This document shows positions 48,828 to 51,819 of a DNA stretch of 64,000 nt, one piece after another. Numbering within the stretch: position 1 is the stretch's first letter; every line of letters starts with the position of its first letter. Source of the stretch: Escherichia phage LF82-9. Made by a program: the position numbers and the translations under genes. Under the pieces are notes generated by a model. It was not told where the DNA came from and ran no database searches. It saw only the letters and a program-made list of their open reading frames with translations. The stretch is taken from the sequence record PV660452; one strand, written 5' to 3'.

Positions 48828-48851
48828 AGCCCCAACCTTTCGGCTGGGGCT
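48828..48851 (-). terminator. conserved terminator hairpin, copy 3 of 4
   Basis: AGCCCCAGCC-GAAA-GGTTGGGGCT then T5. Confidence 0.5.
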
Positions 48852-48858
48852 AAGAATG

Positions 48859-49332
48859 TTATATGATTTGTTTAGCAGACCAAATGCGGTCTTTAATAAT
48901 TTTTTGGATGTCTTCAACATATTCAAGAGAGTGAACATGTGGGTTATCTTTGAAACTATAAGCACGAGCTAGCTTTTGGCCTTCAGTTTTGATTATCAAA
49001 AGTTCTTTAAGAATTGCTTCATACCTAGAGATAATTCCTTTAGCAATATTTTTTTCTTGTGCTGCTTTAGGGTCAGCCTTAGGAGCAGGTTTACCTGAAG
49101 CCTTTGCAAAAGCAGCTCCAGTAGCAACTAAACTTTTCCAAGCCATACTAACTGCATTCCCTGTAAATCCTTCGGCTTTCATATCACGAGCAAATTGGAA
49201 TCGTGATTCATCGGAAGCATCTTTATAGGAATATTTACCCGCGGCAATGGCAGCTTTTGCAACAGCTTGAATTTCAGTGCTAGATGCTTCATTTAACACC
49301 GCTTCATTTAAAAATTGAGCATATGATTTCAT
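48859..49332 (-). CDS. internal protein-like with capsid-targeting N-terminus
   Basis: N-terminus MKSYAQFLNEA; Ala/Lys-rich. Confidence 0.55.
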   Translation of the reverse strand: MKSYAQFLNEAVLNEASSTEIQAVAKAAIAAGKYSYKDASDESRFQFARDMKAEGFTGNAVSMAWKSLVATGAAFAKASGKPAPKADPKAAQEKNIAKGIISRYEAILKELLIIKTEGQKLARAYSFKDNPHVHSLEYVEDIQKIIKDRIWSAKQII

Positions 49333-49382: not shown

Positions 49383-49406
49383 AGCCCCAACCTTTCGGTC
49401 GGGGCT
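49383..49406 (-). terminator. conserved terminator hairpin, copy 4 of 4
   Basis: AGCCCCGACC-GAAA-GGTTGGGGCT then T5. Confidence 0.5.
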
Positions 49407-49549: not shown

Positions 49550-49693
49550 TCAAAAACGCTACTCGGCTTACGGCAAAGATATTTCCTCGAATCGATAATT
49601 CGGTGCGCCGTTTCTGCTGTGATGTAAGAGGGCATCAATAAACGCAAAGATTATTAACGCAATTCCTTACTCAGGGAACATCAGTCCGACGAC

Positions 49694-50248
49694 TTACCGG
49701 TAGCGACCCGGTTTCTCATTTGGTATTTCAAATTGTGTAGATTTAGTATCTAATTTTTTAACTATGGAACTTATGTCATGAAAGAAAAACCATTCACCAT
49801 TTATATGGTCCTGATTATAAATGCTGTGCATATATTTTTCAAGTTCTACTGCATCCTGGGAATATCTAAATGATACTATTTTAAAACTTTTAAACGGTGA
49901 AAATGTATTTGCTGTTATAACTCTAACATCAGGTTCTATACTTCTTCCTATTTTATAATAATTAGGATTTGTAGTATCTACCATTATGTATACGAAAGCC
50001 TGTCGATAGCTTTTTTCTATATCAAATTCATCTTTAAATTTCAAAAGATTTAGGGCGGCAGTCCTACAAAATACTTTCCATTTTGACAAGCGTTTGGCTT
50101 CAGTCATAGAAAAGAATTTTTTCTTATCTGTTATTTTAAGAAAAGCAACATTTTCAATTAGTTCTTGTGTTATTTCAAAATTACCATGGTATATTAATCC
50201 AGCTTTTATAGCCAAATTAATTTGGTCCCAGTCTACATCACTTCTCAT
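49694..50248 (-). CDS. T5orf172/GIY-YIG-like domain protein inside the tRNA region (candidate homing-endonuclease-like gene)
   Basis: Motif FVYIMVDTTNPNYYKIGRSIEPDVRV resembles VYxL..N...YKIG.T....R core; AT-rich ORF; sits where T4 has segB. Confidence 0.4.
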   Translation of the reverse strand: MRSDVDWDQINLAIKAGLIYHGNFEITQELIENVAFLKITDKKKFFSMTEAKRLSKWKVFCRTAALNLLKFKDEFDIEKSYRQAFVYIMVDTTNPNYYKIGRSIEPDVRVITANTFSPFKSFKIVSFRYSQDAVELEKYMHSIYNQDHINGEWFFFHDISSIVKKLDTKSTQFEIPNEKPGRYR

Positions 50249-50269
50249 AATATTATTCTCTCAATAATT

Positions 50270-50346
50270 TGGTCAGGGTGAAAGGATTCTAACCTTTAAC
50301 CTGCGGTTTAGAGGACCGCTACTCTATACAATTGAGTTACACCCCG
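50270..50346 (-). tRNA. tRNA-Arg (anticodon UCU)
   Basis: Hand-folded cloverleaf; T-loop TTAGAAT; anticodon loop CCTCTAA (C at position 33 atypical); CCA encoded. Confidence 0.6.
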
Positions 50347-50472
50347 TAATTAGTTCACAGCAATACCTACTCCAACAATCAAGATGTCTTCACACGAAAT
50401 TAAGAGAAGTGTGATCAGTTCAACCCCTATAATCGCGTCAAGTAGATATTAATGTGACAGTTGTCACAAGTT

Positions 50473-50547
50473 TGGCGGACATGCATGGATTCGAACCATG
50501 GACCAATTGATTAACAGTCAACTGCTCTACCACTGAGCTACACATCC
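50473..50547 (-). tRNA. tRNA-Asn (anticodon GUU)
   Basis: Cloverleaf with D-arm GCTCAGTGGTAGAGC, anticodon loop CTGTTAA, T-arm CATGGTTCGAATCCATG, CCA encoded. Confidence 0.7.
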
Positions 50548-50551
50548 AAAT

Positions 50552-50638
50552 TGGTGGGGAGTGGTGGAGTCGAACCACCCGAGTCGCAATGACAATGAAT
50601 TTACAGTCCACACCGCTACCTCTACGGGATAACTCCCC
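50552..50638 (-). tRNA. tRNA-Tyr (anticodon GUA), long variable arm
   Basis: Acceptor GGGGAGT/ACTCCCC, anticodon loop CTGTAAA, T-arm GGTGGTTCGACTCCACC. Confidence 0.6.
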
Positions 50639-50644
50639 TTAATT

Positions 50645-50719
50645 TGGTGGCCCTGGGTGGAATTGAACCACCATCTGGCGATTATGAGTCGCTTGCTTGA
50701 ACCTTCCAGCTACAGGGCC
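50645..50719 (-). tRNA. tRNA with CAU anticodon (Met or lysidine-modified Ile)
   Basis: Acceptor GGCCCTG/CAGGGCC, anticodon loop CTCATAA, T-loop TTCAATT. Confidence 0.6.
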
Positions 50720-50720
50720 T

Positions 50721-50796
50721 TGGTGCTGATTAACGGAATCGAACCGCCGACCTTCTCATTACAAGTGAGTTGCTCTACCTACTGAGCTAAATCAGC
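50721..50796 (-). tRNA. tRNA-Thr (anticodon UGU)
   Basis: Acceptor GCTGATT/AATCAGC, D-arm GCTCAGTAGGTAGAGC, anticodon loop CTTGTAA. Confidence 0.7.
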
Positions 50797-50801
50797 AAAA
50801 C

Positions 50802-50891
50802 TGGCGGAGGCGATAGGATTTGAACCTATGAGTCGCCGGAGCGACTGCCGGTTTTCAAGACCGGTGCATTAAACCACTCTGCCACGCCTCC
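50802..50891 (-). tRNA. tRNA-Ser (anticodon UGA), long variable arm
   Basis: Acceptor GGAGGCG/CGCCTCC, anticodon stem-loop CCGGT-CTTGAAA-ACCGG. Confidence 0.7.
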
Positions 50892-50893
50892 AG

Positions 50894-50967
50894 TCTCCAT
50901 ACAAGGATTTGAACCTTGGACCTCCTGATCCCAAATCAGGCGCTCTACCAAACTGAGCTACACGGAG
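50894..50967 (-). tRNA. tRNA-Pro (anticodon UGG)
   Basis: Acceptor CTCCGTG/TATGGAG, anticodon loop TTTGGGA, T-arm CAAGGTTCAAATCCTTG; CCA not encoded. Confidence 0.7.
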
Positions 50968-50977
50968 TAAATTAAAT

Positions 50978-51051
<74 letters not shown>

Positions 51052-51056
51052 AAATT

Positions 51057-51143
51057 TGGTGCGAGAAGTGGGACTCGAACCCACAAGGAAATCATTCCGC
51101 AGCATTTTAAGTGCTGTGCCTTTACCAATTTGACCATTCTCGC
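51057..51143 (-). tRNA. tRNA-Leu (anticodon UAA), long variable arm
   Basis: Acceptor GCGAGAA, anticodon loop CTTAAAA, T-arm GTGGGTTCGAGTCCCAC, CCA encoded. Confidence 0.75.
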
Positions 51144-51144
51144 G

Positions 51145-51217
51145 CTGGGAATAAAGGACTCGAACCTTTGCATCCTGGAATCAAAATCCAGTGCCTTACC
51201 AACTTGGCTAATTCCCA
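51145..51217 (-). tRNA. tRNA-Gln (anticodon UUG)
   Basis: Acceptor TGGGAAT/ATTCCCA, anticodon loop TTTTGAT, abuts tRNA-Leu with 1-nt spacer as in T4 Gln-Leu dimer. Confidence 0.75.
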
Positions 51218-51303: not shown

Positions 51304-51819
51304 TTAAAGCAAATTAAACATCTTAACGGTCGGCAAAACAATTTCTTCTTCTATATAAGAGTATTTAACACTCTCAACTACACGCAAAAAATCATAATCA
51401 TAATACTCAGAAGCATTACCTAAAATATTAATAAGTCCTTCAAGCACTTTATTACCATTCACAAAGAATAAGTCAAATACACGTTCTTCATCTTCTTCAG
51501 ATTTATTACCAAGGTCAACTTCTATATCAAAGACCTTTTTAATGAATTCTGGATAAAGTTGGTCTGAGAACAGTCCTTCAACCAAGTATTCATAGATAAA
51601 AAGCGATTGCTCACTGAACGAAGCATTACCACAATAGTGATCAACTTTTGTGCTAGAATGACGGCTTTTAAACTTCTTTAAAAGATATTGGAATTGTAAG
51701 ATTTCATGCTCTTCTACACCAAACAATGTTTTGGTTTTATAGTTGTCACCGTCATTTTCCCATGTAGTTACATCAATCACATAACCCTGCGGAATTGTAG
51801 TACCTAAACAAATATTCAT
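51304..51819 (-). CDS. hypothetical protein
   Basis: 171-aa ORF. Confidence 0.5.
   Translation of the reverse strand: MNICLGTTIPQGYVIDVTTWENDGDNYKTKTLFGVEEHEILQFQYLLKKFKSRHSSTKVDHYCGNASFSEQSLFIYEYLVEGLFSDQLYPEFIKKVFDIEVDLGNKSEEDEERVFDLFFVNGNKVLEGLINILGNASEYYDYDFLRVVESVKYSYIEEEIVLPTVKMFNLL

What the first reader, a model, noticed from the sequence alone, without database searches (positions are those of the whole stretch)
49694..50248. AT-rich ORF with a T5orf172/GIY-YIG-like motif embedded next to the tRNA array
The 184-aa protein carries FVYIMVDTTNPNYYKIGRS...R, resembling the GIY-YIG-related T5orf172 core. It sits between the tRNA-like element and the tRNA array, the place where T4 carries the homing endonuclease segB, and looks more AT-rich than its neighbours, suggesting a mobile or recently acquired gene.
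Basis: inference. Interest (0 to 1): 0.5.

Follow-up and report, generated by a model that had tools for sequence, protein, structure and literature searches.

The report
Mobile T5orf172 nuclease gene beside tRNA-Arg
The flagged ORF is a real, selectively maintained T5orf172-type (GIY-YIG-fold) nuclease gene that moves between T4-like phages as a 628-bp unit with its own tRNA-Arg gene, most likely as a free-standing homing endonuclease; this is a well-supported but fairly ordinary kind of selfish phage gene.

Summary

The window is a Tequatrovirus close to phage teqskov. The gene occurs in 18 of more than 1000 related records. A 628-bp unit (variant tRNA-Arg(UCU), 21-nt spacer, ORF) is 95.7% identical in the Gaprivervirus VR26, where flanks are 75-77%. 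In phage sutha it forms a 99-100% identity island. dN/dS is 0.11. The unit sits at the tRNA-Arg|rnaD junction, and its stop codon lies 26 nt inside rnaD. Relatives, including T5's own T5p067, dock 18-22 nt after a tRNA 3' end.

Best reading: a free-standing homing endonuclease that co-converts its neighbouring tRNA. Nuclease activity and target are not shown. T4's segB lies on the other side of tRNA-Arg. This is a new member of a known kind, of moderate interest.

The parts
49694..50248 (-). ORF184, a T5orf172-type putative homing endonuclease gene (identical to teqskov_169 / QHR64313.1, annotated 'hypothetical protein')
50009..50248 (-). N-terminal four-helix domain (about aa 1-80) with the invariant motif W57...CRTAALNLLKFK. 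It is the presumed DNA-targeting domain, has no Zn-finger and matches no known fold
49739..49999 (-). T5orf172 / GIY-YIG-fold nuclease domain (about aa 84-170). Invariant residues: Y87, K99, G101, R109, P118, E137, E152
49694..49720 (-). Junction-derived C-terminal tail (aa 177-184 plus stop), encoded by the 5' end of rnaD. The native protein is about 176 aa
50249..50269 (-). 21-nt spacer carrying the Shine-Dalgarno-like GAGAG. It is homologous in all T4-like family members
50270..50346 (-). Variant tRNA-Arg(UCU) ('Arg-prime'), which co-transfers with the ORF. Its T-loop is GGTTAGAATCC
49720..50347 (-). 628-bp laterally transferred module (tRNA-Arg-prime + spacer + ORF up to ...GAAATACCAA)
49602..49719 (-). 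rnaD (species 2 RNA) homologue. Its first 26 nt overlap the end of the ORF
49383..49406 (-). Intrinsic terminator hairpin. It is the first terminator downstream of the tRNA array, the ORF, rnaD and rnaC
50473..51217 (-). Upstream array of nine tRNA genes (Gln, Leu, Gly, Pro, Ser, Thr, Met/Ile-CAT, Tyr, Asn), co-oriented with the ORF

Best explanation
ORF184 is a free-standing homing-endonuclease-type selfish gene. Its C-terminal T5orf172 domain (GIY-YIG fold) would cut DNA. Its N-terminal four-helix domain would supply sequence recognition. In a mixed infection the enzyme would break the tRNA-Arg/rnaD region of a related phage that lacks the gene. Recombinational repair from the gene-carrying genome would then copy the ORF, its 21-nt leader and the adjacent variant tRNA-Arg into the broken genome by co-conversion. 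In common Tequatroviruses this replaces tRNA-His + tRNA-Arg + a 116-aa ORF. The gene is packed between RNA genes with no terminator, so it is probably translated from the unprocessed tRNA precursor transcript.

Shown here: the domain identity and fold; invariance of the catalytic-type residues; purifying selection; sporadic distribution; discrete module boundaries; intergeneric transfer; and docking at tRNA 3' ends.

Inferred: nuclease activity, DNA binding by the N-terminal domain, the location of the cleavage site, and the double-strand-break repair route.
For: Domain: Pfam MUG113 and T5orf172 score above their gathering cut-offs.

Catalytic residues: Y87, K99, G101, R109, E137 and E152 are invariant in 34 homologues down to 21% identity. 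hhalign puts Y87, R109 and E137 in register with Y127, R148 and E180 of ICP1 Odn, and Odn's E180A mutant loses nuclease activity in vitro and in vivo (PMC8263062). Odn has the same domain order, with the targeting domain N-terminal and T5orf172 C-terminal.

Selection: dN/dS = 0.11 against the VR26 copy.

Sporadic distribution: 18 records (14 phages) carry the gene, out of 1028 records that match the region. An unrelated 116-aa ORF occupies the same site in 278 records. T4 has nothing there.

Mobility: window 50347-49720 is 95.7% identical to VR26 (Gaprivervirus) over 628 nt, while the flanking genes Trna.3 and Trna.4 are 75-77% identical. Against sutha, the module is a 99-100% identity island, with rnaD at 75%, the upstream tRNAs at 79-90% and the far flanks at 60-80%.

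Composition: 29.9% GC, z=-2.25.

Family habit: the family docks 18-22 nt after a tRNA 3' end. tRNA-Arg(UCU) is that tRNA in 8 of 9 T4-like contexts. The 3' end runs into the next RNA gene in the window, KpV477, NR01 and T5p067.

Precedent: SegB, a homing endonuclease in the same tRNA cluster, targets tRNA genes (PMC2330249).
Confidence: 0.6

Rival explanations
1. It is a domesticated T5orf172 protein that acts as a DNA-binding regulator or other non-homing factor, like CapR of the ICP1 satellite PLE. The phage retains it because it is useful, and the gene spreads only by ordinary recombination.
For: CapR is a precedent for domestication of T5orf172 homing-endonuclease-like genes (PMC8096241, listed, and PMC10448857). 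Purifying selection is strong (dN/dS 0.11). In AV110 the module is as diverged as its backbone, which is consistent with stable long-term retention. The N-terminal helix motif CRTAALNLLKFK is invariant.
Against: The catalytic-type residues Y87, R109 and E137 are invariant across homologues at 21-77% identity, which is not expected if nuclease activity were dispensable. Distribution is very sporadic. There is a sharp identity island. The gene is wedged in a tRNA cluster, with no obvious regulatory target.
Confidence: 0.12
2. It is a nuclease used in conflicts and not for its own spread. It could be an Odn-like weapon against a satellite, a competing phage or host DNA. It could also be a SegB-like driver of segmental amplification of the tRNA locus that helps the phage escape tRNA-targeting defences.
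For: Odn has the same domain order and is a sequence-specific T5orf172 nuclease directed against a satellite. SegB in the same tRNA cluster promotes amplification of tRNA genes to evade Septu (PMC13096335). The module carries a variant tRNA-Arg, which could be cargo that resists an anticodon nuclease. There are weak PADLOC hits to PD-Lambda-1 and PDC-S57.
Against: The PADLOC hits cover only the shared nuclease domain, with E-values of 4e-5 to 6e-3. No target is identifiable. These roles are not exclusive of homing, since SegB does both. No tandem amplification is seen in the window.
Confidence: 0.15
3. It is an ancestral T4-like gene that has been lost from most lineages, and is neither mobile nor recently acquired.
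For: Homologues at 53-63% identity sit in the same kind of position (after tRNA-Arg) in Jiaodavirus, Serratia phage PS2 and metagenomic T4-like contigs. In AV110 the divergence of the module equals that of its flanks.
Against: The module is 95.7% identical between Tequatrovirus and Gaprivervirus, against 75-77% for the flanks. It forms a 99-100% island in sutha within a 60-90% background. Different upstream tRNAs (Arg-prime type, T4-type Arg, Met-CAT) are joined to the same spacer and ORF. The GC content is atypical.
Confidence: 0.05
4. It is an RNA-level enzyme that processes or modifies the tRNA precursor transcript in which it is embedded.
For: It is invariably positioned between RNA genes, with ends abutting or overlapping tRNA or tRNA-like genes, in T4-like and T5-like phages.
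Confidence: 0.03

Closest known systems
Phage T5 T5p067 (172 aa, in the T5 tRNA region; possibly the namesake of Pfam T5orf172, not verified) and its T5-like relatives such as Salmonella phage NR01_0009
   Same: Full-length homologue: 29% identity over 166 aa, E=5e-15, covering both the N-terminal helical domain and the T5orf172 domain. The gene layout is the same: a tRNA 3' end, a spacer of about 21 nt, the ORF, and a 3' end that overlaps the next tRNA gene. NR01's copy reads into a tRNA-Arg(UCU) gene.
   Different: The host phage family is different (Demerecviridae, not Straboviridae). The flanking tRNAs differ (Cys/Asn in T5). In NR01 the tRNA-Arg lies downstream, not upstream. I found no functional data on it.
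ICP1 Odn (gp88) and the ICP1-type T5orf172 homing endonuclease genes (Barth et al. 2021, 2023)
   Same: A C-terminal T5orf172 nuclease domain with an N-terminal targeting domain. The motif residues Y, K-x-G, R and E align in register, with E137 matching the experimentally essential E180. They sit at boundaries of genetic exchange between phages.
   Different: The N-terminal domain is unrelated. Odn has a RepA_N domain, and most ICP1-type genes have CapR, DUF723 or DUF4397 Zn-fingers. ORF184 has a four-helix domain with a single Cys and no Pfam match. The hhalign probability is only 20% against the single Odn sequence. Barth et al. state that T4 has no T5orf172 genes.
T4 SegB (GIY-YIG homing endonuclease of the T4 tRNA gene cluster)
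   Same: A free-standing nuclease gene embedded in the same tRNA cluster, next to tRNA-Arg, and sporadically distributed. SegB cleaves tRNA genes of segB-less phages and drives preferential inheritance of the tRNA region.
   Different: There is no detectable sequence relationship (hhalign probability 0.1%). The domain order is the opposite, because the canonical GIY-YIG domain is N-terminal in Seg proteins. SegB lies upstream of tRNA-Arg and ORF184 lies downstream.
Canonical GIY-YIG nucleases (I-TevI catalytic domain, SLX1, UvrC N-terminal domain)
   Different: Pfam PF01541 is not significantly matched (13.1 bits against a cut-off of 22.6). The second motif is K-I-G with a variable preceding residue instead of Y-I-G.

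Membership tests
T5orf172 / MUG113 (Pfam PF10544 / PF13455) | Score above the curated gathering threshold of the family HMM | tested here: met
   MUG113 scores 38.0 bits (cut-off 22.3) and T5orf172 scores 27.9 bits (cut-off 20) at residues 85-155. The precomputed Pfam domains of all 12 close homologues are the same.
T5orf172 / MUG113 (Pfam PF10544 / PF13455) | Homology to phage T5's 172-aa T5orf172-domain protein T5p067 | tested here: met
   BLASTP to T5p067 gives E=5e-15 and 29% identity over 166 aa. T5p067 itself matches positions 1-100 of the 101-position T5orf172 profile.
GIY-YIG nuclease superfamily | The three-stranded beta-sheet/alpha-helix GIY-YIG fold | tested here: met
GIY-YIG nuclease superfamily | Catalytic Tyr (GIY), Arg and Glu are conserved | tested here: met
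   Y87, R109 and E137 are invariant in 34 homologues. They align with Y127, R148 and E180 of Odn, and Odn E180A is inactive.
GIY-YIG nuclease superfamily | Second motif Tyr ('YIG'), and a match to the canonical Pfam GIY-YIG model | tested here: not met
   Y98 is variable across the family, and only K99 and G101 are invariant. PF01541 scores E=0.13 and 13.1 bits, below the 22.6 cut-off. This is typical of the T5orf172 branch.
Free-standing homing endonuclease gene | Presence/absence polymorphism among otherwise collinear relatives | tested here: met
   18 records carry the gene out of 1028 that match the region. Alternative occupants of the site, or an empty site, are seen in T4, PaulHMueller, Aplg8 and RB18.
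Free-standing homing endonuclease gene | Evidence of lateral spread with flanking co-conversion | tested here: met
   A 628-bp module is 95.7% identical between genera whose flanks are 75-77% identical. It forms a 99-100% identity island in sutha. The tRNA-Arg-prime gene differs at 1 of 77 positions from the VR26 copy.
Free-standing homing endonuclease gene | Site-specific DNA cleavage of the allele that lacks the gene, and resistance of the carrier's own allele | not testable with these tools
   This needs purified protein and cleavage mapping on the tRNA-Arg/rnaD regions of gene-less phages.
Free-standing homing endonuclease gene | Endonuclease-dependent preferential inheritance in mixed infection | not testable with these tools
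   This needs phage crosses with wild-type and catalytically dead alleles.
T4 Seg family (SegA-G) | N-terminal canonical GIY-YIG domain homologous to I-TevI and the Seg proteins | tested here: not met
   hhalign of the family profile against T4 SegB gives probability 0.1%. The nuclease domain is C-terminal.
ICP1-type T5orf172 homing endonuclease genes with CapR/DUF723/DUF4397 Zn-finger DNA-binding domains | A CxxC...CxC Zn-finger DNA-binding module | tested here: not met
   The N-terminal 80 aa contain one Cys (C61) and match no Pfam family above noise. The fold is four helices.
PADLOC defence proteins PD-Lambda-1 / PDC-S57 | Full-length match to the defence protein model | tested here: not met
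   Only residues 81-173 match part of the 212-496-position profiles, with E-values of 3.7e-5 to 5.8e-3. This is sharing of the nuclease domain only.

The most novel reading that the evidence does not exclude
A lineage of T5orf172 endonucleases with a previously undescribed four-helix targeting domain homes specifically to the ends of tRNA genes, chiefly tRNA-Arg(UCU), in T4-like and T5-like phages. It would carry along a tRNA-Arg allele whose T-loop (GGTTAGAATCC, with a compensating D-loop change) escapes cleavage by tRNA-gene-directed endonucleases such as SegB. Its expression would be gated by tRNA-precursor processing, because its stop codon lies inside the downstream RNA gene. This would make tRNA clusters arenas in which two unrelated endonuclease families compete and reshape the tRNA repertoire. 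Here that reshaping costs the phage its tRNA-His.
Probability: 0.25. Interest if true: 0.6.

Novelty: new member of a known kind. Interest (0 to 1): 0.4.

Why it matters
The work turns a 'hypothetical protein' into a testable homing endonuclease candidate in Tequatrovirus, the best-studied phage group for homing. A recent survey states that T4 itself has no T5orf172 genes. The work also shows that the tRNA-Arg/rnaD junction is a recombination hot spot with at least four alternative occupants, and that acquiring the module changes the phage's tRNA set: tRNA-His is lost and tRNA-Arg is swapped for a variant. Phage tRNAs are now known to counter tRNA-cleaving host defences, and SegB remodels this same locus. 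A second, unrelated nuclease acting there is therefore relevant to how phage tRNA repertoires evolve. The small protein (about 176 aa) with an uncharacterised recognition domain could also be of interest as a compact site-specific nuclease scaffold. All of this depends on demonstrating activity.

Tried and rejected
1. A sequence search of the family profile against all PDB chains found no hit even at E=10, so the link to solved structures had to come from fold comparison.

2. hhalign of the family profile against T4 SegB found no relationship. I therefore rejected 'segB-like'.

4. NCBIfam returned nothing. The PADLOC hits cover only the nuclease domain, so I rejected membership of a defence system.

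With the narrow alignment it returned only 3 IMG/VR loci, all of them already-known phages. I assembled the tRNA-linkage tally from GenBank phages and three metagenomic contigs instead.

6. I considered whether 'ACCAAAT', which occurs at both ends of the spacer+ORF insert, is a target-site duplication, and whether the terminal ATACCA is a remnant of T4-type tRNA-Arg. I did not accept this. ATA-CCA encodes the I/L-P that is conserved near the C-terminus of homologues with different downstream sequences, so the match may be coincidence or microhomology.

7. I considered that the variant tRNA-Arg is an obligatory part of the element. I rejected this at deeper evolutionary distances, because the same spacer+ORF follows T4-type tRNA-Arg in KpV477 and L014, and tRNA-Met(CAT) in L016.

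8. The sigma-70 promoter scan found no more sites than in shuffled sequence (7 against 7.6 expected), so I assigned no promoter.

9. Two scripts failed because locus L002 had not been copied to the sandbox. I used the alignment tool instead.

Full report
OBSERVATION. It spans 49694-50248 on the minus strand, starts with ATG, and encodes 184 aa with FVYIMVDTTNPNYYKIGRSIEPDVR at residues 85-109. It is co-oriented with a 10-gene tRNA array at 50270-51217 and with 93 of the 102 ORFs called in the window. The window is a Tequatrovirus. This region is 98% identical to Escherichia phage teqskov, and the protein is 100% identical to teqskov_169, which is annotated 'hypothetical protein'.

AT-RICHNESS. 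The ORF has 29.9% GC, or 28.8% for its 176 native codons. The mean for the window's ORFs is 36.8 +/- 3.0%. That gives z=-2.25 and rank 4 of 102, and it is the lowest value among ORFs of at least 100 aa. The contrast is exaggerated locally by the GC-rich RNA genes on both sides.

WHAT THE PROTEIN IS. Pfam MUG113 (38 bits, cut-off 22.3) and T5orf172 (27.9 bits, cut-off 20) match residues 85-155. The canonical GIY-YIG model does not reach significance (E=0.13). PHROG 5032, of unknown function, matches end to end at E=3e-59, and weaker hits go to PHROGs annotated as endonuclease or homing endonuclease.

A profile search of 1.84 billion representative proteins finds only 4 clusters at E below 1e-30 but 2875 at E below 1e-3. 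Many of these are 160-190-aa proteins that cover both domains. In an alignment of 34 such proteins, at 21-77% identity to the window protein, Y87, K99, G101, R109, P118, E137 and E152 are invariant.

Aligning that profile to ICP1 Odn (gp88) puts Y87, K99-x-G101, R109, E137 and H141 in register with Odn Y127, K138-x-G140, R148, E180 and H184. Odn is the one T5orf172 protein I found with demonstrated nuclease activity. Its E180A mutant is inactive in vitro and in vivo, and E180 was equated with I-TevI E75 (PMC8263062). The hhalign probability is low (20%) because the target is a single sequence, but every motif is in register.

The N-terminal domain carries an invariant W57...C61-R-T-A-A-L-N-L-L-K-F-K72 helix. 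It matches no Pfam family and no solved fold in any informative way. A DNA-recognition role for it is an inference from the domain logic of Odn and other homing endonucleases.

LOCAL ANATOMY. Read in the direction of transcription (minus strand), the order is as follows:
- the tRNA array, from Gln through Asn (51217-50473)
- a 126-nt spacer that is conserved in many phages
- a variant tRNA-Arg(UCU) at 50346-50270
- a 21-nt leader with GAGAG (50269-50249)
- the ORF (50248-49694)
- rnaD (49719-49602)
- rnaC (49595-49457)
- the first terminator (49406-49383)

The ORF's last nine codons (176-184, the first only in part) and its TAA stop lie in sequence identical to the T4 tRNA-Arg|rnaD junction (ACCAAATGAGAAACCGGGTCGCTACCGGTAA). 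The stop codon is 26 nt inside rnaD. Homologues and the PHROG profile align only to residues 1-176, so residues 177-184 were created by the junction.

COMPARATIVE EVIDENCE FOR MOBILITY. Megablast with the native ORF finds it in 18 records, which represent 14 phages. There are eight Tequatroviruses at 98.5-100%, then VR26, VR7 and ESCO10 at 91-96%, and three phages at about 80%. By contrast, 1028 records match the surrounding region.

The site has several alternative states:
- T4 has tRNA-Arg abutting rnaD, with segB on the other side of tRNA-Arg.
- PaulHMueller has segB, an Arg-prime-like tRNA and then rnaD.
- Aplg8, RB18 and 278 records in all have tRNA-His, a third type of tRNA-Arg, and an unrelated 116-aa ORF.

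Against Aplg8, homology breaks at window 49716/49717 and at 50355/50356. The second break falls at the 5' end of what is tRNA-His in Aplg8.

Against the Gaprivervirus VR26, a single 628-nt block is 95.7% identical. It runs from window 50347 to 49720, that is, from the first base before tRNA-Arg-prime to ...GAAATACCAA. The neighbouring Trna.3 and Trna.4 genes are 75-77% identical. The tRNA differs at 1 of 77 positions, and the ORF has 15 synonymous and 8 non-synonymous differences (dN/dS 0.11).

Against Tequatrovirus sutha, the module is a 99-100% identity island. rnaD immediately downstream drops to 75%, the upstream tRNAs to 79-90% and the more distant backbone to 60-80%.

The window-type tRNA-Arg occurs at 95% identity or more only in ORF-carrying genomes.

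In the Mosigvirus AV110 the same 630-nt block has the same boundaries. It is 80.5% identical, which is no more than its flanks (80-81.5%), and it is followed there by the 116-aa-type ORF. So the unit may be long resident in some lineages and recently imported into others.

FAMILY-WIDE HABIT. In nine T4-like contexts the homologous leader and ORF begin 18-22 nt after a tRNA 3' end. The contexts are the window type, VR26, AV110, KpV477, PS2, a second Serratia phage, and three metagenomic contigs. In eight of them that tRNA is tRNA-Arg(UCU), but of two unrelated sequence types. In the ninth it is tRNA-Met(CAT).

In T5-like phages the nearest relatives (about 39% identity) read into a downstream tRNA-Arg(UCU) gene and stop at the TAA in its anticodon loop. 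T5's own 172-aa T5p067 sits 21 nt after tRNA-Cys and overlaps tRNA-Asn by 24 nt. It is 29% identical over its full length to the window protein.

The minimal unit is therefore leader plus ORF, docked between RNA genes. The adjacent tRNA hitch-hikes over short evolutionary distances.

MECHANISM. The best-supported reading is a free-standing homing endonuclease.

Shown: membership of T5orf172; the GIY-YIG fold; an invariant catalytic-type triad that aligns to a validated nuclease; purifying selection; sporadic distribution; discrete boundaries; intergeneric transfer; an identity island; and anomalous composition.

Inferred: that the protein cuts DNA; that the N-terminal domain recognises a sequence in or beside tRNA-Arg or its junction in gene-less phages; and that double-strand-break repair copies the ORF and co-converts tRNA-Arg-prime, replacing tRNA-His, tRNA-Arg and the 116-aa ORF.

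SegB is a direct precedent in the same cluster. It recognises the T-psi-C motif GGTTCRANTCC of tRNA genes and drives preferential inheritance of the T4 tRNA region (PMC2330249). It is statistically associated with tRNA genes across phages (PMC13096335).

No terminator or above-background promoter separates the ORF from the array. The ORF is therefore probably translated from the tRNA precursor. Processing at the rnaD 5' end would remove its stop codon, which may keep expression low. This last point is speculation.

RIVALS. I considered four alternatives, and the structured fields weigh each of them:
- a domesticated regulator like CapR
- a conflict or amplification nuclease like Odn or SegB
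- an ancestral gene lost from most lineages
- an RNA-processing enzyme

The first two are not excluded. The last two are contradicted by the transfer evidence and by the gene's absence from most phages that have the same tRNA array.

COMPARISON AND NOVELTY. Functionally the gene behaves like SegB, but it is unrelated to it and sits on the other side of tRNA-Arg. By sequence it belongs with T5p067 and the T5orf172 homing endonuclease genes described for ICP1 and T5-like phages. It lacks their Zn-finger DNA-binding modules. That survey states that T4 has no T5orf172 genes. My literature searches found no description of this tRNA-docked subfamily in T4-like phages.

The domain family, the concept of homing endonuclease genes in T-even tRNA clusters, and the gene itself (as a database 'hypothetical protein') are all already known. 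I therefore rate it a new member of a known kind, with moderate interest (0.4).

Noticed in passing
window 48859-49332 (-), with hairpins at 49383-49406 and 48828-48851: A 157-aa ORF between rnaC and e.8 is absent from T4 and has no Pfam match. It is bracketed by two near-identical terminator hairpins (AGCCCCGACCGAAAGGTTGGGGCT and AGCCCCAGCCGAAAGGTTGGGGCT). This looks like a second insertion that duplicated the terminator. The ORF is only 69-88% identical in sutha, although rnaC next to it is 100% identical.
   Followed up: partly
window 50270-50346 (-); also L018 1406-1482, L015 1406-1482, L013 1807-1883: The variant tRNA-Arg has a non-canonical T-loop (GGTTAGAATCC, with A where C56 is nearly universal) and a D-loop UUGUAU in place of the usual GG. 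The metagenomic relative L015 has G at that T-loop position together with C in the D-loop. This suggests covariation of the 19-56 elbow pair. The change also breaks SegB's core recognition motif GGTTCRANTCC, and a similar allele sits right next to segB in PaulHMueller.
   Followed up: partly
window 50347-50355 compared with L003 2160-2235: Genomes that carry the ORF lack the tRNA-His gene that most Tequatroviruses with the Tyr/Asn tRNAs have at this position. Acquiring the module therefore costs the phage a tRNA.
   Followed up: partly
L003 1711-2061 (-) (Aplg8); L004 1663-2013 (-) (RB18); L018 2042-2386 (AV110): The alternative occupant of the site is a 116-aa ORF (MKGNVYLVVHD...), found in 278 phage records. 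It has no significant Pfam match, and its stop codon also abuts the rnaD 5' end. Its function is unknown.
   Followed up: partly
window 49694-49719; L007 1725-1734; L008 1705-1743; L012 4469-4492: In four family members the ORF's stop codon lies inside the downstream RNA gene: 26 nt into rnaD, 10 nt into tRNA-Thr, 39 nt into tRNA-Arg and 24 nt into tRNA-Asn. In NR01 the stop is the TAA of the anticodon loop. 5' processing of that RNA would leave an mRNA without a stop codon.
   Followed up: partly
window 50541-50770 compared with L001 (teqskov): Teqskov, the closest database relative, lacks the segment that carries tRNA-Thr, Met/Ile(CAT), Tyr and most of Asn. Its array goes from Ser straight to a remnant before tRNA-Arg. 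The window is therefore not teqskov itself, and tRNA content varies even among near-identical phages.
   Followed up: no
window 51304-51819 (-): A 171-aa ORF just upstream of the tRNA array has no Pfam match. It is absent from T4, REP3 and sutha but present in RB18 and AV110, so it is another accessory gene in this variable region.
   Followed up: no
L006 1501-2160 (VR26): In VR26 the homologue is annotated as 219 aa, because it lacks a stop at the native end and reads 43 codons into a degenerate remnant of the rnaC 3' region.
   Followed up: partly
window 50347-50472 (-): The 126-nt spacer between tRNA-Asn and tRNA-Arg is about 97% conserved across many Tequatroviruses. It contains short inverted repeats (TGTGACAACTGTCACA; CACAC...GTGTG). 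Its function is unknown; it might be a promoter or processing signal for the distal part of the cluster.
   Followed up: no
window 50645-50719 (-): ARAGORN calls this gene tRNA-Met(CAT). The RB18 and REP3 records annotate the orthologue as tRNA-Ile, with the CAU anticodon presumed to be modified.
   Followed up: no
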